Made by a program: the position numbers and the translations under genes. DNA of 64,000 bases. Source: Candidatus Magasanikiibacteriota bacterium (lineage in GTDB: Bacteria > Patescibacteriota > Patescibacteriia > Magasanikbacterales > 2-02-FULL-50-9b). Shown here in pieces: positions 9,574-63,107 of this stretch. The notes under the pieces were generated by a model. The model ran no database searches. It saw nothing but the letters and a program-made list of their open reading frames with translations, and was not told the DNA's origin. The DNA lies in assembly GCA_943355025.1 (NCBI GenBank), contig CALRDW010000003.1, positions 7,680 through 71,679 of the forward strand, given 5' to 3'. Every line of letters begins with the position of its first letter. Position 1 is the first letter of the stretch.

Positions 9574-9930
9574 ATGACATCAAAGAAATTGTACGTAGGC
9601 AATTTGCCTTACACGACAACTGATGCAGATCTCAAGGATCTCTTCGGTCAGGCAGGCGCAGTAGAAACAGCAAGCATCATTTCAGACAAATTCTCAGGCC
9701 GTTCAAAGGGCTTTGGTTTTGTTGAAATGAGCACACTCGAGGAAGCTGAAAAAGCTATCTCGATGCTCAACGGCTACCAGATGGGTGGCCGCGCTCTCAC
9801 AGTTACAGAAGCTCGCCCTAAGCCAGAAGGTGGCGCAGGTCGCAGTTTTGGTGGCGGTGGTGCAGGCGGCGGATCACGCGGTGGTTACGGAGGCGGTGGT
9901 GGTTCACGCGGTGGTTACAACGATCGCTAA
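9574..9930 (+). CDS. RRM-type RNA-binding protein with Gly/Arg-rich tail
   Basis: RNP motifs LYVGNLPY and KGFGFVEM; C-terminal GGGAGGGSRGGYGGGGGSRGGY. Confidence 0.85.
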   Translation: MTSKKLYVGNLPYTTTDADLKDLFGQAGAVETASIISDKFSGRSKGFGFVEMSTLEEAEKAISMLNGYQMGGRALTVTEARPKPEGGAGRSFGGGGAGGGSRGGYGGGGGSRGGYNDR

Positions 9931-9961
9931 ACCATTTCTTGCTTTACTACTTGAACAGAGA

Positions 9962-9989
9962 GGCGTCCCTTTCGGGGGGCGCTTTTTTG
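9962..9989 (+). terminator. rho-independent terminator of the RRM gene
   Basis: GGCGTCCC-TTTC-GGGGGGCGC hairpin followed by TTTTTTG. Confidence 0.6.
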
Positions 9990-9998
9990 TTTCAACCC

Positions 9999-10079
9999 AT
10001 ACCCAAAGAAAATAATTCTACTTCTCAGGGAGAGATAAACAGGAACTCCCGTCGAAGTAGAATTATTTTCTTTGGGTAT
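9999..10079 (+). repeat. structured module copy A: 26-bp perfect inverted-repeat arms (9999-10024 and 10054-10079) around core TCAGGGAGAGATAAACAGGAACTCCCGTC
   Basis: left arm ATACCCAAAGAAAATAATTCTACTTC is the exact reverse complement of the right arm; homologous elements at 18037-18209, 62757-62836 and 27879-27959. Confidence 0.8.
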
Positions 10080-10107
10080 ACGTCAACACAAGTGGTATAC
10101 TGCTCAC

Positions 10108-11208
10108 ATGCTTCCGAATCCATTTGAAAAACCGCTGCCGAAATTAGAAGAAACAGATCCTCTTAAGAATGAGGAAATTGTTCGGAGCCTGCTCGGTGAG
10201 AAGGGTGTTGAACGATATCGAAAAATTTTAAATCGCACGAAAGTTTCTTCGGGGCCCGACGCGGTGTCTGTCGAAGAGCTCAAAGCGCTCGCAGCAGAAT
10301 TGAATGCGCAGCGATTGGCGAGTAAAAAAGAAACTACAGAGTGGCAGGTTGAACAAATTATTTCAAAGGATTATGAACGACAAATGGTATCTCTTCGCGC
10401 AATCAAATTTCTTAAAAGAAAAGACGGAATTTTAGGTTTAAAAGCTGTTGACGGAGAATTTTATCCAGCTCCATCAGAAAAAGAGATCGTACGATATTTT
10501 ATTTCAATTCCGAATATTAAAGAAAAGATATATCAAGGATTTACGCGACTACTCATTGTTCCGTTCGGGCGCTCGCTTGCTTTTTTGAACAAAAAAACAT
10601 CGGATTTGATTTTAGAGCACGGGGAGGGTGGCAGGCTTTTGAGTGAATCAGGCGAAAAGCTCTCCTTTGATTTGTCAGGACCGGTATACAATCAGTTCAA
10701 CAATGCTTTGTCCCGATATTATTCAGGGTCATTCGCTGTTCCGGGTACGGGAGGCAAACTTAAAACCGATTTTTTATCGGGACCACAAGATGGCATGCCA
10801 TTTCCAGGCTACAACATTATTTTATTGCAAGAAGATTTACATATTCCGAAGGAAGGCGAAGGCGTGACACGAAATGGAAGAAAACAAATTGAAGCGGGGA
10901 AATCAGCAATTGAGTATTTGGAATTATTACAAACAGATCCGCAGTATGCGGGTGAGCGTGGCCTCGCGCCCGAAGATTGGCTCACGTTATTTGCAACGCA
11001 ACTGTATCAGACAAACACTGTTATACATGAAACATCTGCGGCAATGCCGCCCACAGGAACGGCTGCACTTTTGATTGGCAGCGATTATTCACATAATGGA
11101 GATGTTTCGTTTGCACACTGGACTGACCGATTAGGCATGGCAGCAATTATGTTGATGAAGTCGCATCATTCAGGCGAAGGGGTAGGCCTTATAACCGCTG
11201 TCGGATAA
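10108..11208 (+). CDS. paralog A of an unknown-function protein family (conserved N-terminus MLPNPFEKPLPKLEETDPLKN)
   Basis: ATG lies 6 nt after a TATACT -10 (10096-10101), so leaderless; shares GFTRLLIVPFG, PFPGY..LLQED..IPKEGEG..GRKQ.EAG, EDWLTLFAT and a C-terminal TAVG with the 18235 and 37341 genes. Confidence 0.75.
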   Translation: MLPNPFEKPLPKLEETDPLKNEEIVRSLLGEKGVERYRKILNRTKVSSGPDAVSVEELKALAAELNAQRLASKKETTEWQVEQIISKDYERQMVSLRAIKFLKRKDGILGLKAVDGEFYPAPSEKEIVRYFISIPNIKEKIYQGFTRLLIVPFGRSLAFLNKKTSDLILEHGEGGRLLSESGEKLSFDLSGPVYNQFNNALSRYYSGSFAVPGTGGKLKTDFLSGPQDGMPFPGYNIILLQEDLHIPKEGEGVTRNGRKQIEAGKSAIEYLELLQTDPQYAGERGLAPEDWLTLFATQLYQTNTVIHETSAAMPPTGTAALLIGSDYSHNGDVSFAHWTDRLGMAAIMLMKSHHSGEGVGLITAVG

Positions 11209-11310: not shown

Positions 11311-12282
11311 TTACAGTGTAACTTCCATGCTTTGGAACGCATAGTCCGTGCGAATTCCCGTCGTCTCATTGATCGTGCGGACGATCTCTGTGACTTCAGG
11401 AAGCCCGAATTTCGGTTCATGATGCGTTGTGATCACGTGCGTGGTTCTCGCTTCCTCGAATTGTCGCGCCGCAGCCTCGGCCCACATGTGGCCCCAACCT
11501 TTGCGGAATGAAATTCCGTTCGGCATGTGGCCATCGTAAAACCGCTTCGTATACTGCACTTCGCCAATCGTCAGCGTTGCGCGATCACAGAGCCGCAGGA
11601 TTTTTTGATCGAATTCCGGTTTCTCCGGCTCGTGCTCATGGTCGAGAACGAGCGCAAGCACTTTGTCATTGCCAAAGTGAAACCGATATCCATACGCACG
11701 GCCTGGGTGGTTCATGATATCGCAATCCACGACAATGTCGCCGTAGCTCGATGGAATCGTGAACCGTTCGCCGGGACGCACCAGCTGGAACGTGCGTTTG
11801 CACGGCAGCTCGCGGTAATTGATCGGGAATGTTGGCTCAACAAGAATCTGTCGCTGCAGCGTCTCATGAACTGTTTCTTCCCATGTCTCAATCGTGCCGT
11901 CGTGGCTCTCCCGCTTGAAGGTGTGTGTTCCGCCGATGAAGTGCATGTGCGTCTTTGGCGAGAACAACGGGTCAAACGATGGAAGACCGAATGTGTGGTC
12001 GCCGTGCATGTGTGTATACAGCACATTGACGCGCACCTCCCGCCCCCGCATCGTGTATTCCTGCATGATCTCGGCGCCAAAGTTTCGTACACCAGAACCA
12101 GTGTCGCAGATCGTGATTGAGTCGCCATATTCGATTACGATGCACGAGGTGTGGTGGCCGATGCGCTGATCATCACCTTGGAATGAGCCGCGAACACCGA
12201 AGAATCGGATGCGGACAGGTTTCGGGTCAATCTCCGAGCTGATGCGGAGCGAAGTTTCAATTGTTGGACGAATGCGTACCAT
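11311..12282 (-). CDS. MBL-fold metallo-hydrolase
   Basis: THMHGDHTFG (HxHxDH) motif; visibly GC-rich gene. Confidence 0.7.
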   Translation of the reverse strand: MVRIRPTIETSLRISSEIDPKPVRIRFFGVRGSFQGDDQRIGHHTSCIVIEYGDSITICDTGSGVRNFGAEIMQEYTMRGREVRVNVLYTHMHGDHTFGLPSFDPLFSPKTHMHFIGGTHTFKRESHDGTIETWEETVHETLQRQILVEPTFPINYRELPCKRTFQLVRPGERFTIPSSYGDIVVDCDIMNHPGRAYGYRFHFGNDKVLALVLDHEHEPEKPEFDQKILRLCDRATLTIGEVQYTKRFYDGHMPNGISFRKGWGHMWAEAAARQFEEARTTHVITTHHEPKFGLPEVTEIVRTINETTGIRTDYAFQSMEVTL

Positions 12283-18036: not shown

Positions 18037-18209
18037 CGCTCAAAAAGAATAAATGATACTTCTCAGGGAGAGATAAACAATACATCTTTCTCCGTCACAT
18101 CAGCATTTCAAAAATCTTCCGCTCAGGCTAAAATAAAAAATAGATGTCTCTCCGGGGGAGATAAACAGGAACTCCCGTCGAAGTAATAGTTTTTACTTTT
18201 GGGTATACG
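18037..18209 (+). repeat. structured module copy B (degenerate outer arms; core partially duplicated)
   Basis: TCAGGGAGAGATAAACA occurs at 18063 and again as GGGGGAGATAAACAGGAACTCCCGTC at 18153-18179; right arm GAAGTAATAGTTTTTACTTTTGGGTATACG. Confidence 0.7.
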
Positions 18210-18234
18210 TTCATTCAGGTGTTATACTACTCCC

Positions 18235-19437
18235 ATGCTTCCTAATCCTTTTCAAAAACAACTACCAGAGTTTAAAGACACAGACCCTCTTAAGAACAGA
18301 GAGATTGTTAGAGAACTCCTCGGACCAGAGGGAGTACATAAATATAGAAAGATTCTCGGAGATAATTCGGATTCTAATTTAAAGCGTCAGAAAGAAGTTT
18401 CTAAAGAAGATCTCCTTGCCATGGCAGCAGAAGCTCGCTCTAAAATAGATACTCTGTCCAGAGACTCAGTAAAGCCACTCATCGAGAGACTCGTGGAGCG
18501 CCAATACAACTCTCAGATCCAATCTCTGCAAGAGATTGGATTCCTAGAACCTCTCGTACCACAAAAAAAGAAAAGCTTTACCTTTTTCAAATCAAAAGAA
18601 CCAGAAGAAACTACACCAGAGAAACTAGGAGCTACAGACATCCTCGGTACCTTCCGAGAAGTCCCCTCAGAGGAAGCCATCAAAAATCACTTCCTCTCCA
18701 TTCCTAACATCAAACAAAAGATAGATCAAGGATTCACACGGCTTCTCATTGTTCCCTTTGGAACATCCCTCGACACCCTCCGTTCTAAAACAGGAGAACT
18801 TATCAAGAAGCATAAGAAAGCAAACAAACTTCTTGCAGAGGATGGAAGCAGTTTAGAACTCGACACTGCAACACCACTCTGGGCATGGGACGGCTATAAC
18901 AACGCAGACAAGTCAGGAGCGCTCGTTTATTATCCAGAGCACTTTGATAAAGAAAATCACAATGGTACAACCAAAACAGAACTTCTCTCAGGAGCTCAAC
19001 CAAGTCAAGCAAACTCTTCCACACCAAACACCAATCCATTCCCCGGCTACCGTATTCTTCTTATTCAGGAAGACACACAGATTCCACGAGAAGGAAAGGG
19101 AACAGCAAAAGCAGGGAGAGACAGTTTAGAAGCAGGTAAGTCTCCAAACGACTACTTAGAACTTCTTAAAACAGATCAGAGCTATTCTAAAGAACTCGGC
19201 CTCACTCCAGAAGACTGGCTTACTCTCTTTGCAACGAATCTCACAGAGAAGAACAAGGTTATCAATGACTGGCAGTCTAATAAAGACAGTATTAATTATC
19301 TAGTTGGTAGTTATTTCCCTGGTTCTGACCGCGTCCCGCGCGCGTACTGGGGCCGTGGCGGTCGGCGGGCGCGCTTGGACAGGGGCGGGCCGGCGGGTGT
19401 GAGCGGGGATTTTGGCGTTGCTGGCGCGGTGGGGTAG
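18235..19437 (+). CDS. paralog B of the same family (MLPNPFQKQLPEFKDTDPLKN...; Gly/Arg-rich GC-rich C-terminus ending AVG)
   Basis: ATG 6 nt after TATACT (18223-18228); shared motifs as paralog A. Confidence 0.75.
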   Translation: MLPNPFQKQLPEFKDTDPLKNREIVRELLGPEGVHKYRKILGDNSDSNLKRQKEVSKEDLLAMAAEARSKIDTLSRDSVKPLIERLVERQYNSQIQSLQEIGFLEPLVPQKKKSFTFFKSKEPEETTPEKLGATDILGTFREVPSEEAIKNHFLSIPNIKQKIDQGFTRLLIVPFGTSLDTLRSKTGELIKKHKKANKLLAEDGSSLELDTATPLWAWDGYNNADKSGALVYYPEHFDKENHNGTTKTELLSGAQPSQANSSTPNTNPFPGYRILLIQEDTQIPREGKGTAKAGRDSLEAGKSPNDYLELLKTDQSYSKELGLTPEDWLTLFATNLTEKNKVINDWQSNKDSINYLVGSYFPGSDRVPRAYWGRGGRRARLDRGGPAGVSGDFGVAGAVG

Positions 19438-19662
19438 AACCCCTTGGCCCCTTACTCCTTTTTTGTCTCCTTACTAAACCGGTGAAAAGTAACGTACCTC
19501 GGAGTACGTGCTCCGGAGAAATCGAGCAACTCACAACGATGCTCCTTGGTGCTTCACACAGTGAAATACCAGCATTGAGTAGTGAGAATAAAAGCAATTA
19601 TAATCCCCCACCGGTCCGTTACGGGCTCTTTTTGCGGTTCGATGATTTTAAAACGTGTTGGC

Positions 19663-27745: not shown

Positions 27746-27850
27746 TCACATCTGAGACATCATCAAAAAGCCACGGGTAATACGTGCCAATAAGAATGGC
27801 TCTGTGTCTTTAAACTCTGGGAGTTGTTTTTCAAAAGGGTTAGGAAGCAT
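27746..27850 (-). pseudogene. N-terminal fragment (34 codons) of the MLPNPF paralog family, copy D
   Basis: MLPNPFEKQLPEFKDTEP then divergent FLLARITRGFLMMSQM*; preceded by TATACT 6 nt upstream and module copy D. Confidence 0.6.
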
Positions 27851-27878
27851 GGAAGCAGTATAGCACTTGAATGAACGC

Positions 27879-27959
27879 ATACTCAAAGAAAATGCAGATG
27901 CCTCGACGGGGGCTCGTGTATATCTCCCCCTGAGAGGCATCTGCATTTTCTTTGAGTAT
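27879..27959 (-). repeat. structured module copy D: 26-bp perfect IR arms (27879-27904 / 27934-27959) around core (minus-strand reading TCAGGGGGAGATATACACGAGCCCCCGTC)
   Basis: arm ATACTCAAAGAAAATGCAGATGCCTC and its exact reverse complement; conserved upstream box (minus-strand) CAGTGATTCAACATATACTCAAAG. Confidence 0.8.
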
Positions 27960-37340: not shown

Positions 37341-38369
37341 ATGCCTGTTGATCCTTTTGAAATGTACCCACTTGAGCCACAGCCCGAAGAGCACAAAAAA
37401 GAATCTTTAAAATTTCAACCAAAGGATGAATTTTATTTTGATCATGCAGCCGCACTTAAGCATTCCGCAGAATGGAGTTTGAATGAATTACCGAAACAAT
37501 ATAAAAAGAATACTGAAATTTTGGATGAGCTTGGATTACTCGAGAATTCTAAGGGAGAGCGAGCAATTAAAAGCGTTGATGGTAAGACGTATTCATATCC
37601 TACCGTAGAAAACATACAGAAGTATTTTGAGAGCATGCCAAACATTGAGATGAAGCATGCTCAGGGTTTTAACCGATTGCTGATTGTTCCGTTCGGGTTG
37701 CCAATTGAAAAAATAGGAGAAGCAGTTAGTAAAAATTTAATACATGGAATACGTTCTGGCAGGTACCTTACTGCAAATGGAGAATCTTTCCGTGGTGACG
37801 CAGACGAGGACATGATTATGATTGCCCGCTCCATTTTGGGAGAACGAGGCTGGGGAGATCTTAAATATTATCCAGACTCGTTTGATCAAAAAAAAGATTC
37901 AGGTAAAACAAAATTGGAAATTTTGGGTGGAGGTTCTTCGGTTCAACCATTTCCAGGGTTTCATGTGCTTTTGTTGCCTGAAACAATTGAAATGCCAAAA
38001 GAGGGAGAGGGCAAAACAGTGGCGGGTCGAAAGCAATTTGAATGCGGAATGAGTGCTGAAGATGTTTTAGAATCTTTAAAGACAGACCCTGCATTCAAGC
38101 TTGAATGTGGTTTAACTATTGAAGATTGGCTTTTGTTTTTAGCGGCAGAGACTCGTAGTACAGGACGCTTACCTGGGTGTGCTAATGACACAGATTTTTT
38201 TGATGTAAGCGATCTGCCGCCATCAGCAATATTGTTGGGTAATTTAATTGGAAAAACTGACATAACGGTGTGGGCTGGGTGGTACCCTAGACACCAAACG
38301 TACGGGGTCGGGCATCTTGATGCTGATGATGGTCATGACAAGCTTTGCGCAATGACGGCTGTTAAATAA
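37341..38369 (+). CDS. paralog E of the unknown-function family (divergent N-terminus MPVDPFEMYPLEP)
   Basis: shares GFNRLLIVPFG, QPFPGFHVLLLPETIEMPKEGEGKTVAGRKQFECG, EDWLLFLAAE and C-terminal TAVK with paralogs A and B; no upstream hairpin module, but TGTGATATACT and palindrome AGTCTAAACTAGACT at 37301-37325. Confidence 0.7.
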   Translation: MPVDPFEMYPLEPQPEEHKKESLKFQPKDEFYFDHAAALKHSAEWSLNELPKQYKKNTEILDELGLLENSKGERAIKSVDGKTYSYPTVENIQKYFESMPNIEMKHAQGFNRLLIVPFGLPIEKIGEAVSKNLIHGIRSGRYLTANGESFRGDADEDMIMIARSILGERGWGDLKYYPDSFDQKKDSGKTKLEILGGGSSVQPFPGFHVLLLPETIEMPKEGEGKTVAGRKQFECGMSAEDVLESLKTDPAFKLECGLTIEDWLLFLAAETRSTGRLPGCANDTDFFDVSDLPPSAILLGNLIGKTDITVWAGWYPRHQTYGVGHLDADDGHDKLCAMTAVK

Positions 38370-42417: not shown

Positions 42418-43265
42418 GCATTCACTCTCAATTAAAGAATTACCATGTACGCTTAGCCGAAAGGCTCGTACCTCTGGGCCGTTAGTAGCGGCCTTTTTGC
42501 TTCTTAAATGGGGCACGAAGTTTGGCAGAACAATGAGTGGAGAGTATCTGAACTTTAACAACTGAAGATTACGAAGGTAAAGGCAAATAATAGAACCATT
42601 GCAATTAAGCAAATAATAAAAACGTAAGTAAGTAGTGTAAAAACACAATGTACGTGAAGCTTTCCAAGCGCATAAACACCGTCTTGGTGCTTCAATGTAA
42701 GAGCGTACAATAAGGGTGTGTGGTGGATGCCTTGCTAAATATAGCTGAAGAAGGACGCTGTAGCGAGCGAAAACTACGAGAAGGTCGCAAACAACCTCTG
42801 ATCCGTAGGTCTCCGAATGGGGAAACCCACTTCGATGAGAGTCGAAGTATCCTGCAGTGAATACATAGCTGCTGGAAAGTTACCCGGGGAAGTGAAACAT
42901 CTCAGTACCCGGAGGAATATAAATCAAATGAGATTCCCAGAGTAGTGGCGAGCGAAATGGGAACAGACCAAACGTACAATCCACGAACGGAATGAAAGGT
43001 CGTCTTCGGACGTATCATGAATTCCGGGAAAGGTGTAGGCCGATGTGTTGTACGGGTTGTGGGATGATACTTGAGAGGACCTACAAACTCTCGGTCAGAA
43101 CTGTGTTATAGGAAAATAGGCTGGAAAGCCTAACCAAAGAGGGTGATAGTCCCGTATTCGAAATGACATTAGTTCGGCTTGTATCGTTCCCGAGTAGGGC
43201 AGGACACGTGAAATCCTGTCTGAAGCTGGGACGACTATGTTCCAAGTCTAAATACTATATTTAAG

Positions 43266-43302
<37 letters not shown>

Positions 43303-43887
43303 CAGCCCGAAAGGGCGATGAAATAGTTTCTGAAACCACGCACTTACAAGGAGTCGGAGCCCAAGCGCGCGTAAGCGAAATGCCGGGTGACGGCGTGCCT
43401 ATTGAAGAATGAGCCAACGAGTCAGTTGACCGTCGCAGGTTAAGGTCCTATGGACCGGAGCCACAGTGAAAGCAAGGATTAATAGTCCGTTTGTGGCGGC
43501 GACTGTACCCGAAACGGGGTGAGCGACCCATGACCAGGTTGAATGTTTTGGAAACAAAACAGGAGGACCGAACCAACCAGCTGTGCAAAACTGGTGGATG
43601 AGTTGTGGGTAGCGGAGAAATTCCAATCGAACCCCGTGATAGCTGGTTCTCCTCGAAACATCTTTAGGGATGGCCTCGTATGTTCCCACCGGAGGTAGAG
43701 CACTGAATGAAAACAGGGGCGCAAGTCTACTTTTTTCAACCAAACTCCGAATGCCGGTGATTAAAAATACGGGAGTCAGACAGTGGGGGCTAAGCTTCAT
43801 TGTCTAAAGGGAAACAGCCCAGACCATCAACTAAGGTCCCAAAATCAATGCTCAGTGTGAAAAGTGGTGATGTAGCTTTGACAACCA

Positions 43888-43919
<32 letters not shown>

Positions 43920-44708
43920 GAAAGCGTAACAGCTCACTGGTCGAGCCGCATCGCGCTGAAAATATACCGGGGCTTAAGCATTGTACCGAAGTTATGGATT
44001 GTATTCGGATCCGTCTGAATACAGTGGTAGAGGAGCGTTCCGTCCAGCAGTGAAGTCGGACCCGCGAGGGCCGGTGGAGCGGACGGAAGTGAGAATGTTG
44101 GCATAAGTAGCAGAAACGGGTGTGAGAATCACCCGCACCGTAAAACCAAGGTTTCCTGGGCAACGCGAATCGTCCCAGGGTAAGTCGATCCTAAGCTCAG
44201 GCCGAAAGGCGTAGGCGATGGAAGAGCAGGTTAATATTCCTGCACTATGATAGTGGAGTTCTATATGTGCGCATTTTTGAGATGTGAGCGGTATTTGGTT
44301 ATGGCCGTTGCGCAAGCACGAGATGAAGTCTTCGGATGGAATCAAGTTGGGTTGAAGAAGTGCCAAGAAAAGCATATAGCGCGTTGAAGCTGTCGTATCC
44401 GTACCGGAAACCGACACAGGTGGTTGGGCATGAATATGCCAAGGTGTACGAGAGAACCCTCGTTTAGGAACTAGGCAAAAAAGTAGGCGTAACTTCGGGA
44501 TAAGCCTTCCCTCTCGCAAGAGAGGGCGCAGCGAAAGACATCAGGCGACTGTTTATCTAAAACACAGCTCCATGCGAAACCGTAAGGTGATGTATATGGG
44601 GTGATGCCTGGCCAGTGTCCGAATGTTAAGGGGAGAGGTTAGCCGCAAGGCGAAGCTTTGATCCGAAGCACGGATGAACGCCGGCCGTAACTATAACGGT
44701 CCTAAGGT

Positions 44709-45419
44709 GAATAAAAGCTGCCTTAGTAAAATTCGACTAAATGCTGGAACAACTGGAGTATCTTGTGCTCCTAAGGTATAATGTAACCATAGATTATGCC
44801 AAGGAATAATGTACAAGCGTTTCCGAGTAAGGATCGGAAGCCAGTCAATCAGCAGGAAAGACTAGAAATGAGTGGTTGGATAGTAGGATTCACCGATGGT
44901 GAAGGCTGCTTTTCGGTAAGTCTCATAAGAAATACAACAGCCAAAATTGGTTGGCAAGTATTTCCTGAGTTCGTAATCACGCAGGGAGCAAAGAGTCGTG
45001 TAGCACTCGAAGAAATTCAAATTTTTTTCGAATGTGGACGAATCTATGAAAACCGGCGTTACGATAATCACCGAGAGCATCTATTGCGTTATTGTGTGAG
45101 ATCAATTCAAGAGCTTCGAGAACGGATAATTCCTTTTTTTCAGCAACATGAATTGAAAACACACAAAAAGAATGACTTCAAAAAGTTTTGTGAAATAATT
45201 TCTCTTATTGAGAAAAGACATCATTTGACGTATGAAGGAGTTACTAAAATAGCGCAACACATATCAGAAATGAATCGAAAATCAAAACCAAAGTTTCTAG
45301 AATCCTCAGAGACTACACGTCGAACTCTGGACACAGAGATGATATAGTCCGACCTGCATAGCGATATGCAGAAAGTGGTAGAAATACTACTTCGTCCAGA
45401 AATGGATAGTAACATATTG
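44709..45419 (+). mobile_element. group I intron in 23S at the E. coli about 1917 site (between AAGGT and AGCGAAATTCC)
   Basis: exon ends in U, intron ends in G (45419); S-element-like AGATGATATAGTCC near the 3' end; contains the homing endonuclease ORF. Confidence 0.75.
44796..45347 (+). CDS. LAGLIDADG homing endonuclease (intron-encoded)
   Basis: LAGLIDADG motif WIVGFTDGEGCF; 183 aa inside the 23S rRNA. Confidence 0.85.
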   Translation: MPRNNVQAFPSKDRKPVNQQERLEMSGWIVGFTDGEGCFSVSLIRNTTAKIGWQVFPEFVITQGAKSRVALEEIQIFFECGRIYENRRYDNHREHLLRYCVRSIQELRERIIPFFQQHELKTHKKNDFKKFCEIISLIEKRHHLTYEGVTKIAQHISEMNRKSKPKFLESSETTRRTLDTEMI

Positions 45420-45819
45420 AGCGAAATTCCTTGTCAGGTGAGTTCTGACCCGCACGAATGGCATAACGATCTGATGACTGTCTCAACGAGGGACTCGGCG
45501 AAATTGCAAGAGGGGTGAAGATGCCCTTTACCCGTGGTTAGACGAAAAGACCCCATGAAGCTTTACTATAACTTGTCATTGGACATACGTTTCGTATGTT
45601 CAGCGTAGGCGGGAGCCGCAAGGCACCAATGAGACACCGCCCTTACGCTATGTGTGTTCTTGATCCCTGTCCGTGAATCCGGATGGAGAGACAGTGACTG
45701 GTGGGTAGTTTGCCTGGGGCGGGAGCCTCCCAAAAAGTAACGGAGGCGTCTACAAAGGTCAGCTTAGCGCGGATGGAAATCGCGCTGGACGTGTAAACGC
45801 ACAAGCTGGCTTTACTGCA

Positions 45820-45850
<31 letters not shown>

Positions 45851-45968
45851 AGGTTAGTGATCCGACGATCCAACATAGGATGGTCGAAGCTCAACGGATA
45901 AAAGCTACTCTGGGGATAACAGGCTGATCGGGTCCAAGAGTCCATATCGACGACCCGGTTTGGCACCT

Positions 45969-46309
45969 TAACATATCGGGGTGCAAATAGAGTGATTTAT
46001 TTCCAAGTCTTTTCGTCAAAACTAAAATGTTAGATAGTGAGAAACAATAAATTCGGCTTATAACGGAGAACCCGTCAGTGATACGCCCGTATCACCCGGC
46101 AACCCCGTGGGAAGTCGCCTATGAAAGTAGGTTGACCCCGTAACGACTGACCCGAAAGGGGAGAATCTGCGCGCTGTGCGCGGATTAACACGCCGACTCT
46201 TAATACGTCAAACTGAGATTATGCACGTAAACACAGTTAGTGTTTGCAGCTACGATCCAGATTAAGATGAAGATATAGTCTACCCCACAAGAAACTGTGG
46301 AATTATGTA
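45969..46309 (+). mobile_element. second, ORF-less insertion in 23S (probable group I intron at the E. coli about 2500 site, GGCACCU|CGAUGUCGGCUC); boundaries +/- a few nt
   Basis: flanking exon sequence is contiguous in E. coli; contains S-element-like AAGATGAAGATATAGTC (46265-46280); removing both insertions gives about 2.96 kb mature 23S. Confidence 0.55.
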
Positions 46310-46325
46310 CGATGTCGGCTCATCG

Positions 46326-46356
<31 letters not shown>

Positions 46357-46369
46357 TGGCTGTTCGCCA

Positions 46370-46421
<52 letters not shown>

Positions 46422-46814
46422 CTATCTACCACGGGCGTTGAATATTGAGAGGGCTGGTCTTTAGTACGAGAGGACCGAGATCAACGAACCTCTAGTGTAC
46501 CGGTTGTCCCACCAGGGGCAAACGCCGGGTAGCTACGTTCGGCACGGATAAACGCTGAAAGCATCTAAGCGTGAAGCCGTCCTCAAGATTAATATTCGTT
46601 ATAGCTCCCTGGGAGACTACCAGGTTGATAGGCCGGAAGTAGAAGCGTAGTGATACGTGTAGCTGACCGGTACTAATAGAGCGAGTACGACCTTACATTG
46701 AAGCACTCAAACGTTATTGATGTGCTTAAAAATTCGGTAATGGCGACATATTCGTCCATTACCTTCGTAATCAAATCAGTTGAAACGGTTGGAGCAGGGC
46801 TCCCCCGCAGTAAA

Positions 46815-46931
46815 TTGGTGGCTTCAAGTGCAGTGGAAACACCCGTTCCCATTCCGAACACGGTAGTTAAGCACTGCTACGCCGATGATAGTTGGACCTA
46901 ACCCGGTCCCGCGAAAGTAGGCCGCCGCCAG
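46815..46931 (+). rRNA. rrf: 5S ribosomal RNA
   Basis: CCCGTTCCCATTCCGAACACGG...TACGCCGATG...AGTAGG..CGCCGCCAG conserved 5S blocks; T-tract immediately after. Confidence 0.85.
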
Positions 46932-47096
46932 TTTTTTGCGGGGGAGTTTTGTATTTAAAAAAAGGAGTCTCTCGGGCTCCTTTTTTAGTATACCGCTATT
47001 TTTTACCGCTCTCTTCCTTCAAGATGATCACCTGTGCACAAAAAGCCTTGCCGCCCTGGTCTTGTTGGCGTACACTACTCTTTCTATTGAACTTGT

Positions 47097-59959: not shown

Positions 59960-60048
59960 TTTTCTTTCCTTCCGTTCTTTCGAAAAATCCTCGGGCAACT
60001 GAGGGTTTTTCATTTTTATAAGTGGTATACTACGGGAAAGAATATTTT

Positions 60049-61186: not shown

Positions 61187-61911
61187 AGAATGATAATTTC
61201 TGATTCACGTTTGTCCCAGCCTTTTGCAATCAGTGCGGCGCGCGCCGCCTCTTCCTGGGCTTCTTGCTTGCTGGTGCCTTCACCGCTCGCAATCATTTCC
61301 GCGCCCAAAAACAAACCGATGACGAACTTTTTATTGTGGTCAGGACCACTTTCCTCAAGAACTTTGTAGTTTGGCGTAATGCCGACAACGTCTTGTGCCG
61401 CCTCCTGAAAGCGACTCTTTGGATCTACAAATAATCGATTTTCAACGATGTGTCGTAGACGAGTTATAACAAAACGATGAATAAACGCTTCGGCTGCTGC
61501 AAATCCAGCGTCCAGATATATGGCGCCGATGATTGCCTCGATCGCGTTCGCCAGAATATACATGCGAGCCTTGCTGCCCGCGTCCTTTTGTTCGCCTTTA
61601 CTCAGAAACAAGAACGGCTCGAAAGCGATTTCATTTGAAATCTCAGCGAGAATTTTTGCGTTTACCAGGGCGGCACGCAAATTCGTGAGTTTGCCCTCGT
61701 CAATATCAAAACTTTTGTATAAAAATTCTGTGACTGAGAGCTCTAAAACTGCATCGCCCAAAAATTCGAGTCGCTCATTGTGACCGACTTCAAAATCAGG
61801 GTGTTCGTTGAGATATGAACGGTGGACAACGGATTGCAGAAGCAAATCACGGTTTTTGAAAACATGTCCCAGGCGTTCTTCAAGTTGCGGCAGCGCTTTT
61901 ATATCGTTCAT
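61177..61911 (-). CDS. rnc: ribonuclease III
   Basis: RNase III signature ERLEFLGDAVLEL; C-terminal dsRBD. Confidence 0.9.
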   Translation of the reverse strand: MNDIKALPQLEERLGHVFKNRDLLLQSVVHRSYLNEHPDFEVGHNERLEFLGDAVLELSVTEFLYKSFDIDEGKLTNLRAALVNAKILAEISNEIAFEPFLFLSKGEQKDAGSKARMYILANAIEAIIGAIYLDAGFAAAEAFIHRFVITRLRHIVENRLFVDPKSRFQEAAQDVVGITPNYKVLEESGPDHNKKFVIGLFLGAEMIASGEGTSKQEAQEEAARAALIAKGWDKRESEIIILPS

Positions 61912-62393: not shown

Positions 62394-62570
62394 TTATTTA
62401 ACAGCAACAACTTTTCGGCCGCGGTATGTACCGCAAAACGCACATGCGTGATGAGGAACTACCGGTTTTTTGCATTGAGGGCATGCTGCAAGAACCGCTG
62501 TTTTGAGCGCAAAATGCGCGCTACGGCGGCGTTTGTGTGATGATGTTCGTCGATGTCCAGGAAGACCCAT
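62394..62570 (-). CDS. rpmF: 50S ribosomal protein L32 (bL32)
   Basis: 58 aa MGLPGHRRTSSHKRRRSAHFALK...CPQCKKPVVPHHACAFCGTYRGRKV zinc-ribbon; below the ORF-track size cut-off. Confidence 0.8.
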   Translation of the reverse strand: MGLPGHRRTSSHKRRRSAHFALKTAVLAACPQCKKPVVPHHACAFCGTYRGRKVVAVK

Positions 62571-62756
62571 AGTAAATTCGTGACTATACAGGGATTATAA
62601 CAGTGTTTTTGAGGGCTGGCAAGGGGAGTCGGCCGCTCATAGTTTTAGTGTTATATCAGAAGTCGGAGGCGTTGGCAAGAGGTGTGTACTATTCATTTTT
62701 TGGTTTCAACAGGGCTCGGAAGTTTATAAGTAATACAATACGGTGATTCAACATGC

Positions 62757-62836
62757 ACTCAAAAGTAAAAACTATTACTTCTCAGGGGGAGATGAACGAG
62801 GGGCCCCCGTCGAAGTAATAGTTTTTACTTTTGAGT
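62757..62836 (+). repeat. structured module copy C: 25-bp perfect IR arms (62757-62781 / 62812-62836) around core TCAGGGGGAGATGAACGAGGGGCCCCCGTC
   Basis: left arm ACTCAAAAGTAAAAACTATTACTTC equals the reverse complement of the right arm; upstream box CGGTGATTCAACATGCACTCAAAAG. Confidence 0.8.
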
Positions 62837-62866
62837 ATAGGTTCACTCAGGTGTTATACTGCTTCC

Positions 62867-62938
62867 ATGCTTCCTAATCCTTTTCAAAAAACTCTTATAA
62901 GGGAGCTTGTTCATGTCTCAAACACGACTTGGAACTGA
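62867..62938 (+). pseudogene. N-terminal fragment (23 codons) of the MLPNPF paralog family, copy C
   Basis: MLPNPFQKTLIRELVHVSNTTWN*; ATG 6 nt after TATACT (62855-62860); contains AAGGGAG SD for the next ORF. Confidence 0.55.
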
Positions 62939-63107
62939 CAAAGAACACTCGAAATCTTTACGCATTGAGATTATGGCAAAGCGCGGCATGATTAAAGAAA
63001 TGTCACCGCGAGACAAAGTCGGCCGCCGCGCATTGGAAGATAACATCGAAGAACTTGAACGTGAATTGGCAGAACTGTGTCCAGATCCCGCTCCACTATC
63101 AGACTGA
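62913..63107 (+). CDS. small hypothetical protein (64 aa, helical, charged)
   Basis: ATG 62913 preceded by AAGGGAG 7 nt upstream; lies downstream of module copy C. Confidence 0.45.
   Translation: MSQTRLGTDKEHSKSLRIEIMAKRGMIKEMSPRDKVGRRALEDNIEELERELAELCPDPAPLSD

What the first reader, a model, noticed from the sequence alone, without database searches (positions are those of the whole stretch)
62757..62836. Compensatory base changes show the hairpin is selected as a structure, not a sequence
The outer arms differ almost completely between copies. In each copy the right arm is the exact reverse complement of the left arm.
- A: ATACCCAAAGAAAATAATTCTACTTC
- C: ACTCAAAAGTAAAAACTATTACTTC
- D: ATACTCAAAGAAAATGCAGATGCCTC

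The inner stem also covaries: GGGAG/CTCCC in A against GGGGG/CCCCC in C and D. Perfect complementarity kept through extensive divergence implies selection on base pairing, meaning an RNA hairpin or DNA cruciform, rather than a protein-recognised operator.
Basis: seen in the sequence. Interest (0 to 1): 0.75.

Follow-up and report, generated by a model that had tools for sequence, protein, structure and literature searches.

The report
Paired-arm hairpin before variable-protein genes
The hairpin is real and its pairing, not its sequence, is preserved; it is the stalk of an undescribed structured element that overlaps the promoter of a family of hypervariable (DGR-type) protein genes in a Patescibacteria-like genome, and whether selection or DNA copying between the arms keeps it perfect is still open.

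Summary
Copies A (9999-10079), C (62757-62836) and D (27879-27959, minus strand) each have a 25-26 bp perfectly complementary outer stem, a TCA/GTC internal loop, a 5 bp inner stem and a 13-14 nt loop. Across nine copies from this and related assemblies, 13 of 25 pairs change on both sides and 98.7% of cells stay paired.

Arms A and D are 69% identical. The differences sit in an 8-11 bp block between a conserved foot and a conserved core.

Perfection is not universal. Relatives carry C·A and U·G pairs.

The hairpin is half of a ~190 bp module. The foot of its 3' arm is the -35 box (TTGAGT) of an extended -10 promoter, and the ATG lies 7 nt after the -10, so the mRNA is probably leaderless. The downstream proteins have a C-type-lectin fold, and the end of gene B looks like a DGR variable region.

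In three relatives the same stalk encloses a 111 nt three-helix domain with strong covariation and no Rfam match.

There are no G·U intermediates, the indels are mirrored and many changes are AU/UA flips. This fits arm-to-arm DNA template switching at least as well as RNA-level selection. The function is inferred, not shown.

The parts
62757..62781 (+). Copy C, 5' arm of the outer stem (arm type T1, ACTCAAAAGTAAAAACTATTACTTC)
   Evidence: Exact reverse complement of 62812-62836. The same arm type occurs in L019-9917, L157, L158 and L162.
62782..62811 (+). Copy C core: TCA / GGGGG / 14 nt loop / CCCCC / GTC
   Evidence: The core is conserved in all small copies (A7). The inner pair at columns 36/53 covaries A-U with G-C.
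62812..62836 (+). Copy C, 3' arm. Its last six bases, TTGAGT (62831-62836), are the -35-like hexamer.
   Evidence: The promoter scan gives TTGAGT-18-TATACT with a TG before the second hexamer.
62704..62756 (+). Conserved upstream part of the module (TTTCAAC...TTTATAAGTA...GATTCAAC). The module's 5' edge is here.
   Evidence: Alignment of five T1 modules: homology starts sharply at TTTTCAAC and the flanks beyond it are unrelated (A6).
62855..62938 (+). -10 TATACT (62855-62860), ATG at 62867, then a remnant 23-codon ORF (MLPNPFQK...). The family gene itself is missing here.
9999..10079 (+). Copy A hairpin (type T3): arms 9999-10024 and 10054-10079, core 10025-10053
10096..11208 (+). Copy A -10 (10096-10101) and family gene (ATG at 10108, 366 aa)
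27879..27959 (-). Copy D hairpin (type T4): 5' arm 27959-27934, core 27933-27905, 3' arm 27904-27879
   Evidence: The orthologous locus L170 is 98.4% identical and carries an intact gene. L170 has a C·A mismatch where D is perfect.
27746..27862 (-). Copy D -10 (27862-27857), ATG at 27850 and a 34-codon remnant ORF. Homology to the intact orthologue ends 58 nt into the gene.
18039..18204 (+). Copy B, a chimeric hairpin. T2-like left arm 18039-18062, half core 18063-18079, foreign filling 18080-18150, second core 18151-18179, T1 right arm 18180-18204.
   Evidence: The left arm matches L019-1044. The filling matches the 'X' sequence of L164 and L019-16592.
18223..19437 (+). Copy B -10 (18223-18228) and family gene (ATG at 18235, 400 aa). 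The G+C-rich last ~130 nt (19305-19437) look like a DGR variable repeat.

Best explanation
**What it is (shown)**
The 80 nt hairpin is a reduced form of the stalk of a conserved structured element. That element makes up the upstream half of a ~190 bp 5' module. The module is repeated in front of the members of one paralogous family of C-type-lectin-fold variable-protein genes, which look DGR-diversified, in a Patescibacteria/CPR-like genome.

The stalk has three nested layers:
- a conserved A+T-rich foot, whose 3' side is the -35 hexamer (TTGAGT) of a TGnTATACT promoter with the ATG 7 nt after the -10, so the mRNA is probably leaderless;
- an 8-11 bp block that is free in sequence but always paired;
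- a conserved apex.

In three relatives the apex is a 111 nt three-helix domain. In this genome it is only 5 bp plus a 13-14 nt loop.

**How it works (inferred)**
- The element is made as a sense-strand RNA from the conserved upstream part of the module. The long perfect stalk acts as a double-stranded processing or insulating stem, of the kind RNase III cuts. It acts in cis on expression of the gene behind it.
- The two arms are kept identical mainly by copying between the arms at the DNA level (template switching). Any change in the free block is therefore mirrored.
For: - Perfect 25-26 bp stems in A, C and D, with z-scores of -7 to -12.
- 13 of 25 pairs change on both sides across nine copies.
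- The element keeps one orientation and one distance to the promoter in every copy.
- The -35 lies in the foot of the 3' arm, and the -10 is extended.
- The same foot and arm layout closes a 111 nt domain in L160, L002 and L001. That domain has 36 pairs, 15 changed on both sides, 97% of cells paired against 39-54% when slid, and 5 G·U against 2 C·A on the sense strand.
- The arms of L001 and L002 repeat the design of a conserved foot (AAATAAAATAAT) followed by a covarying distal block, TCGC/GCGA against ACCAC/GTGG.
- The loop and the asymmetric TCA/GTC internal loop are conserved.
- The module's 5' edge falls at a -35-like TTTTCA, followed 16 nt later by TATAAG.
- An RNase III gene is present in the window. 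This rests on my reading of the ORF at about 61200-61910, not on a family search.
Against: - No transcript data exist.
- The consensus scan finds no sense promoter upstream of hairpin C. The upstream candidate lacks the conserved final T of a -10. Copy A lacks that upstream segment altogether.
- A complete absence of G·U in the scored outer-stem pairs is unusual for an RNA helix under selection.
- C·A mismatches recur in relatives.
- The hairpin is truncated, interrupted or absent before several intact paralogues, so any role is not essential.
- The large domain is known from only three sequences. Its alignment was fitted to the model, and 5 G·U against 2 C·A is a weak strand signal.
Confidence: 0.4

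Rival explanations
1. DNA cruciform at the promoter. The palindrome works as DNA. Extrusion under negative supercoiling, or binding of a structure-specific protein, hides or exposes the -35 hexamer in the 3' foot and so sets expression of the variable-protein gene. It may also stimulate recombination among the paralogous 5' modules. This is the arrangement described for the Borrelia vlsE promoter.
For: - The -35 lies inside the 3' arm.
- Both DNA strands fold equally well, -28.0 and -28.4 kcal/mol.
- Stems are strictly Watson-Crick with no G·U.
- Recombination breakpoints fall inside or at the edge of the hairpin. Examples are chimera B, L157 against L158 with a crossover between left arm and core and different upstream neighbours, and orphan left arms in L164 and L019-16592.
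- The vlsE precedent is a 100 bp inverted repeat overlapping the -35, whose presence but not sequence is conserved and which raises recombination (PMC7584230, PMC11499132).
Against: - With an extended -10 the -35 is often dispensable.
- A 29 nt unpaired centre makes extrusion kinetically slow (established knowledge of cruciform kinetics).
- The conserved, asymmetric loop and the multi-helix 111 nt domain in relatives are not what a simple cruciform needs.
- Several paralogues do without the hairpin.
Confidence: 0.3
2. Functionless palindrome kept perfect by mechanics. The inverted repeat is an inherited relic of the 111 nt element's stalk. It travels with the promoter module when the module is duplicated or converted. 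Replication template switching between the arms turns every imperfect state into a perfect one, which gives apparent compensatory changes without any selection on structure.
For: - No G·U intermediates, AU/UA flips at six pairs, and a mirrored indel.
- A one-base difference between strains that are 98.4% identical: window D is perfect (GAGGC) while L170 and two other loci have GAGAC.
- Loss, truncation and interruption are frequent.
- Published support for preferential perfecting of inverted repeats (PMC5941160, PMC8604942).
Against: - The core loop, the internal loop and the orientation are conserved far better than the free block.
- Remnant copies C and D keep perfect hairpins after losing their gene.
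- The same nested design recurs in Magasanikiibacteriota loci.
- Template switching also predicts spacer inversions, and none is seen in about 16 copies.
Confidence: 0.2
3. Mobile or recombination site. The hairpin would be an integron attC-like site, a REP/MITE-type palindromic element or a transposon end. A recombinase or HUH nuclease would recognise it and move the promoter module or the gene cassette.
For: - The module has a sharp 5' edge.
- Two remnants (C and L156-4019) end at nearly the same point after CCTTTT[CG]AAAAA.
- ATTCAAC just 5' of the stem fits the attC R'' consensus RYYYAAC.
- Chimeric arms exist.
Against: - The 3' flank GTTCAYT does not fit GTTRRRY.
- There is no cassette array.
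- There is no integrase, transposase or reverse-transcriptase hit in the gene tables of the fetched loci, and no RT motif.
- There are only four copies in 64 kb, always tied to one gene family.
- The NPF N-terminus is ancestral to the protein in lineages without the module.
Confidence: 0.05
4. Protein operator. The inverted repeat is the binding site of a dimeric regulator.
For: Palindromic symmetry next to a promoter. TTCAA-like motifs are repeated in the module.
Against: - The half-sites would be 25 bp long with about 55 bp between centres.
- At least five different arm types exist, and one type (T1) serves at least four different paralogues.
- Only the conserved foot or loop could be a common site.
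Confidence: 0.05

Closest known systems
Inverted repeat overlapping the -35 of the Borrelia burgdorferi vlsE promoter
   Same: - A long, near-perfect inverted repeat that overlaps the -35 box of the promoter of a hypervariable protein gene.
- Its presence is conserved among strains while length, place and sequence are not.
- It is suspected to form a cruciform and reported to raise recombination.
- Its function is still unknown (PMC7584230, PMC11499132).
   Different: - No sequence relationship.
- vlsE varies by cassette gene conversion, whereas this family shows DGR-type adenine mutagenesis.
- Here the palindrome has a conserved apex and, in relatives, encloses a 111 nt covarying domain.
- There are many copies per genome rather than one.
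Quasipalindrome correction by replication template switching
   Same: It yields perfect arms, multi-nucleotide mirrored changes and mirrored indels without G·T intermediates (PMC5941160, PMC7202029, PMC8604942). That is the pattern seen.
   Different: - It is a mutational mechanism, not a functional class.
- It does not explain the conserved loop, the fixed orientation or the tie to one gene family.
- No spacer inversion is seen.
RNase III processing stalks (long complementary flanks around rRNA precursors, phage T7 and lambda processing hairpins)
   Same: A duplex of 20 bp or more, interrupted by an internal loop, closing a structured RNA or lying between transcription units (from my own knowledge of these systems).
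   Different: - Transcription and cleavage are untested here.
- Known stalks tolerate G·U and mismatches, whereas these are strictly Watson-Crick.
- The stalk overlaps a promoter.
DGR target-site hairpin/cruciform downstream of the variable repeat
   Same: A structure-forming inverted repeat belonging to a DGR target gene (PMC3240598, seen in the search listing only). The family here is DGR-like.
   Different: - That element lies just 3' of the variable repeat and, from my own knowledge, is short and G+C-rich.
- This hairpin lies 5' of the gene, about 1.2 kb from the variable repeat, and is 25 bp and A+T-rich.
Integron attC sites
   Same: Sites whose folded structure rather than sequence is conserved. 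ATTCAAC at the 5' foot fits RYYYAAC.
   Different: The 3' consensus is not met, there is no integrase and no cassette array, and the conserved part is the apex rather than only the foot.

Membership tests
Any Rfam 15 family | Covariance-model score at or above the family's gathering threshold | tested here: not met
   There are no hits at the hairpins with gathering thresholds. At E up to 10 there are only sub-threshold microRNA-precursor matches, 35 bits against a threshold of 249. Nothing relevant matches the 111 nt domain in L160 or L002.
Intrinsic (Rho-independent) terminator | G+C-rich stem followed by a run of T | tested here: not met
   No terminator-like site in 62560-62960. The stems are A+T-rich and are followed by ATAGGTTC or ATACGTTC. 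Copy A has a separate canonical terminator just upstream, at about 9955-9990.
Integron attC | R'' RYYYAAC at the 5' foot | tested here: met
   ATTCAAC precedes the stem in C and D and in most relatives. A has TTTCAAC, which does not fit.
Integron attC | R' GTTRRRY at the 3' foot, complementary to R'' | tested here: not met
   The 3' flank is GTTCACT, GTTCATT or GTCAACA.
Integron attC | Adjacent intI integrase and an array of cassettes | tested here: not met
   Copies are scattered among housekeeping genes. No integrase family appears in the gene tables of the fetched loci. The window's ORFs were not all scanned.
REP / MITE-type palindromic repeats | Many dispersed copies independent of one gene family, with terminal repeats and target duplications | tested here: not met
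   There are four copies in 64 kb. All sit in the same position and orientation before the MLPNPF gene start.
Retron msr-msd | Reverse transcriptase gene next to the non-coding RNA | tested here: not met
   There is no RT motif in six-frame translations of the window and loci. No RVT family appears in the gene tables. The downstream gene has a C-type-lectin fold.
DGR target-site hairpin | Lies immediately downstream of the variable repeat and its IMH | tested here: not met
   The hairpin is upstream of the start codon, and the VR-like segment is at the 3' end of the gene. A separate conserved small hairpin follows the stop codon of gene B and of L019b.
DGR variable protein (the downstream gene, not the hairpin) | C-type-lectin-type fold with the variable repeat at the C-terminus | tested here: met
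DGR variable protein (the downstream gene, not the hairpin) | A template repeat whose adenines, and little else, differ from the variable repeat | tested here: met
   TR-like segment at L019 11358-11456. Against gene B, 21 of 26 A differ but only 11 of 72 non-A. Against L019b, 20 of 27 A differ. The template repeat comes from a relative's contig. None is present in the window.
DGR variable protein (the downstream gene, not the hairpin) | A DGR reverse transcriptase in the genome | tested here: inconclusive
   None is found in the window or in about 10 kb around the fetched loci (and the gene tables). The rest of the genome was not available.
vlsE-type promoter-overlapping inverted repeat (an analogy, not a homologous family) | Inverted repeat overlaps the -35 of the promoter of a hypervariable protein gene, with presence conserved and sequence not | tested here: met
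   Compared with PMC7584230 and PMC11499132.
RNase III processing stalk | Transcribed duplex of 20 bp or more that is cleaved in vivo | not testable with these tools
   The duplex length is met (25-26 bp). Transcription and cleavage need RNA data.

The most novel reading that the evidence does not exclude
The hairpin and the 111 nt domain it encloses in relatives are one undescribed class of structured RNA. This RNA accompanies DGR-diversified variable-protein genes in Patescibacteria. Its constant-variable-constant stalk works as a copy-specific double-stranded 'barcode'. The barcode could decide which paralogue is expressed, or which is addressed by the retroelement. Alternatively, the perfect arms could be regenerated by snap-back reverse transcription.
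Probability: 0.12. Interest if true: 0.85.

Novelty: new variant of a known kind. Interest (0 to 1): 0.55.

Why it matters
- **An open question in DGR biology.** How organisms with many dispersed target genes control those genes is not known. Here a conserved structure-forming element sits on the promoter of each target-like paralogue in a reduced CPR-type genome. That gives a concrete, testable handle.
- **A clean natural test case.** The nested design (constant foot, free but paired block, constant apex) can help separate selection on pairing from arm-to-arm DNA copying.
- **A new motif.** The 111 nt domain has no Rfam family.
- **A parallel with vlsE.** The inverted repeat at the Borrelia vlsE promoter is also unexplained. 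The two cases suggest a recurring link between promoter palindromes and hypervariable protein genes.

Tried and rejected
- **Metagenome scan for the core.** I scanned metagenome contigs and viral contigs with an 18-letter pattern that has 15 fixed bases, TCTCAGGGRGAGATNNAC. Every hit was chance: none had the second half of the core or paired flanks.
- **Species-representative genomes.** The genome-contig scan with the protein alignment returned only distant homologues, at most 42% identity. Close relatives had to be fetched one at a time. Three of 12 look-ups found nothing.
- **Foldseek against PDB.** No match for the protein model. The afdb50 library was unavailable.
- **Pfam on the downstream proteins.** Nothing.
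- **Trans targets of the variable block.** No other match in the window with up to 2 mismatches, so an antisense-guide role has no support.
- **Inversion switch.** Rejected, because the core has the same orientation in all copies.
- **Terminator.** Rejected.
- **Upstream sense promoter.** The consensus scan found none for C or L160. The hits inside the A+T-rich arms of L001 and L002 may be chance.
- **The 60015 repeat.** The 21 nt match at 60015-60035 to 62723-62743 is just another TGGTATACT promoter, not a copy.
- **Small ORF inside hairpin C.** It is not conserved in the other copies.

Full report
**1. The observation**

The sequence at 62757-62836 is a hairpin with these parts:
- a 25 bp perfectly complementary outer stem, ACTCAAAAGTAAAAACTATTACTTC with its exact reverse complement;
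- a symmetric 3 x 3 internal loop, TCA/GTC;
- a 5 bp inner stem, GGGGG/CCCCC;
- a 14 nt loop.

The other two quoted copies exist. A is at 9999-10079 on the plus strand. D is at 27879-27959 and reads on the minus strand. Both have perfect 26 bp stems.

They are the only long near-perfect inverted repeats in the window. They fold far better than shuffled sequence, as RNA (z -7.1 to -11.7) and as DNA (z -9.2 to -12.1). For copy C, the two DNA strands fold equally well.

- The arms do not 'differ almost completely'. A and D differ at 8 of 26 positions. All copies share the foot (CYCAAAG.AAAAT) and the last bases before the core (CYTC). The differences sit in an 8-11 bp block next to the core.
- There is a fourth copy, B, at 18039-18204. 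Its left arm and right arm are of different types. About 88 nt and a second core lie between them, and it does not fold better than chance.

**2. What surrounds it**

Every copy has the same downstream layout:
- about 18 nt after the stem comes TGnTATACT;
- 6 nt later comes ATGCTTCCNAAYCCNTTY, which encodes MLPNPF(E/Q)K.

The promoter scan reports TTGAGT-18-TATACT with an upstream TG. The TTGAGT is the last six bases of the 3' arm. With the ATG 7 nt after the -10, the mRNA is probably leaderless. This is an inference from spacing.

Upstream, homology among copies starts sharply at TTTTCAAC, about 50 nt before the stem. The hairpin is therefore the middle of a ~190 bp module.

The genes behind the modules differ:
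- A and B are followed by full genes of 366 and 400 aa.
- C and D are followed by remnants of 23 and 34 codons.
- The locus orthologous to D in a relative (L170, 98.4% identical over 610 nt) has the intact gene. Homology stops 58 nt into it.
- A fifth, more distant family member at 37341-38369 has no hairpin.

**3. The gene family**

The family is small: 28 clusters at E <= 0.001, and no Pfam domain. Its first ~45 residues are much more conserved than the rest, and the last ~45 residues are the most variable.

The 3' ends of gene B and of its closest relatives are G+C-rich. They differ from each other mostly at first and second codon positions.

In L019, 240 nt after a family gene, there is a template-repeat-like segment (11358-11456). 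Compared with gene B, 21 of its 26 adenines differ but only 11 of 72 other bases.

So the family behaves like DGR targets. No template repeat and no reverse-transcriptase motif is present in the window or within about 10 kb of the fetched loci.

Distant homologues lie in Patescibacteria MAGs such as Magasanikiibacteriota, Azambacteria, Berkelbacteria and Saccharibacteria. The window's 23S rRNA carries about 1 kb of extra sequence. Insertions of this kind are, from my own knowledge, common in CPR bacteria.

**4.

Contigs of close relatives gave further modules. The arms fall into at least five types:

| Type | Found at |
|---|---|
| T1 | window C, L019-9917, L157, L158, L162-6452; right arm of window B; left arm of L164 |
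| T2 | L019-1044; left arm of window B, with one difference |
| T3 | window A |
| T4 | window D, L170, L156-79; left arm of L019-16592 |
| T5 | L156-4019 |

I scored 25 pairs on nine full copies:
- 98.7% of cells are paired, against 83.9% in shuffles and 46-59% when the partner is slid.
- 13 pairs change on both sides, and 0 of 500 shuffles reach that.
- No pair has a one-sided (G·U) state.
- Three cells are C·A.

The complementarity is therefore kept through change, and the result holds when homologues are added.

The kind of change is unusual for an RNA helix under selection:
- six pairs include A-U/U-A flips;
- one includes C-G/A-U;
- T1 and T2 differ from T3-T5 by a 1 nt indel present in both arms.

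The only classical U-A / U·G / C-G series is at the foot, within the -35 hexamer: TTGAGT, TTGGGT opposite ACTC, and TTGGGT opposite ACCC.

The C·A pair GCCTC/GAGAC recurs at three loci and in two types, while window D has the perfect GAGGC.

**5. The hairpin is the stalk of something larger**

In L160, a close relative, the same foot and arm layout encloses about 108 nt instead of the 29 nt core. The sequence is GATTCAAC, then the arm CTAAAAGGAACCATCTGTACTG, then the filling, then CAGTGAAGATGGTTCCTTTGAG, followed by the same promoter and ATG.

The same filling occurs in two Magasanikiibacteriota loci, L002 and L001. A covariance model built from two of them found the third at E 8e-14.

The three copies share a three-helix fold of 36 pairs:
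- 15 pairs change on both sides;
- 97% of cells are paired, against 39-54% when slid;
- on the gene's sense strand there are 5 G·U cells against 2 C·A cells.

No Rfam family matches.

The first helix of this domain (GGGG/CCCC, or GGAC/GTCC) corresponds to the window's inner stem. So the window's hairpins look like minimised versions. This step is an inference from position and sequence.

The arms of L001 and L002 repeat the design of a conserved foot (AAATAAAATAAT) plus a covarying distal block, TCGC/GCGA against ACCAC/GTGG.

**6. The element turns over and recombines**

- In L167 the hairpin is cut down to the 11 bp foot and an 11 nt loop.
- In L164 and L019-16592 a normal left arm and half core are followed by an unrelated sequence with its own 18 bp hairpin and its own TGATACACT box. 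Window B contains 46 nt of that sequence.
- L157 and L158 carry the same gene with different upstream neighbours. They differ from the module's 5' edge through the left arm and are identical from the core onward.
- Some intact paralogues have no hairpin (L162-3173, window 37341).

The element is therefore not essential to every gene, and crossovers often fall inside it.

**7. How it most likely works**

Shown:
- it is a structure-capable palindrome whose pairing is preserved;
- it has a fixed place and orientation on a promoter;
- it is homologous to the stalk of a covarying multi-helix domain;
- it is tied to a DGR-like variable-protein family.

Inferred (confidence 0.4): the element is made as a sense RNA, and the long stalk acts as a double-stranded processing or insulating stem. 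The arms are kept identical largely by DNA template switching, which explains the missing G·U states and the mirrored indel (PMC5941160, PMC7202029, PMC8604942).

Rivals:
- **A DNA cruciform gating the -35 or promoting recombination among modules (0.3).** This is as proposed for the vlsE promoter repeat (PMC7584230, PMC11499132).
- **A functionless relic kept perfect by template switching alone (0.2).**
- **A mobile or recombination site (0.05).**
- **A protein operator (0.05).**

Sequence alone cannot separate the first three. The decisive data are strand-specific transcript ends, structure probing on supercoiled DNA, and a wide covariance-model survey.

**8. Comparison with known systems, and novelty**

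The element is not a member of any Rfam family. It is also not a terminator, an attC site, a REP or MITE, a retron RNA, or the DGR hairpin that follows a variable repeat. In each case a defining feature was tested and not met.

In layout it most resembles the vlsE promoter-overlapping inverted repeat. In its mutational pattern it resembles quasipalindromes corrected by template switching.

New here are three things: the nested constant-variable-constant stalk, the 111 nt domain it can enclose, and the association with DGR-type target genes in a CPR-like genome.

**9. Verdict**

I rate the finding as a new variant of a known kind, with interest 0.55.

Noticed in passing
window 19305-19437 (3' end of gene B); L019 11358-11456: The last ~130 nt of gene B are G+C-rich and look like a DGR variable repeat. 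A template-repeat-like segment lies 240 nt after the related gene in L019. Against it, 21 of 26 adenines differ in gene B but only 11 of 72 other bases. No template repeat or reverse transcriptase is in the window.
   Followed up: partly
window 19478-19530; L019 11157-11210: A conserved segment about 40-50 nt after the stop codon, CTAAACCGGYGAAAAGTAACGTACCTCGGAGTACGTGCTCCGGAG, contains a short hairpin (ACGTAC/GTACGT) and the palindrome CTCCGGAG. It could be the DGR target-site structure.
   Followed up: no
window 37341-38369: A fifth, more distant member of the same protein family (MPVDPFEMY..., 31-37% identity). It has only a 42 nt upstream gap, a TGATATACT box and no long hairpin.
   Followed up: partly
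L164 9270-9345; L019 16625-16700; window 18080-18125: An alternative upstream sequence ('X') replaces the right half of the hairpin. It has its own 18 bp hairpin (AGCATTCCAAAAATCTTC ... GAAGAATTTTGGAATGCT) and its own TGATACACT box 6 nt before the ATG. So an unrelated hairpin sits in the same position.
   Followed up: partly
L157 9989 versus L158 3469: The same gene (P0015) has different upstream neighbours in two samples: an HD-domain gene in one, the small subunit of exonuclease VII in the other. The breakpoint is at the 5' edge of the module, which suggests rearrangement by recombination between modules.
   Followed up: partly
L156 3990-4200; L167 5090-5180: Further solo modules or 5' remnants sit in front of unrelated genes (an epimerase, ruvC). 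The remnant ORF in L156 is followed by a terminator.
   Followed up: no
window 42700-46695: The 23S rRNA match spans 3996 nt against a 2925 nt model, so it carries about 1 kb of inserted sequence. 5S follows at 46814-46933. No 16S gene is in the window.
   Followed up: no
window 9574-9930: The gene upstream of copy A encodes a small protein that reads like an RRM-type RNA-binding protein with a glycine/arginine-rich tail, judged from its sequence only. It is followed by a canonical terminator at about 9955-9990.
   Followed up: no
L171 240-290: In a more divergent family member (P0021) the 44 nt upstream gap holds a different 10 bp inverted repeat (TAGAATGTAT/ATACATTCTA) around a TATAAC box. 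This is again a palindrome at the promoter, with no sequence relationship to the window's hairpin.
   Followed up: no
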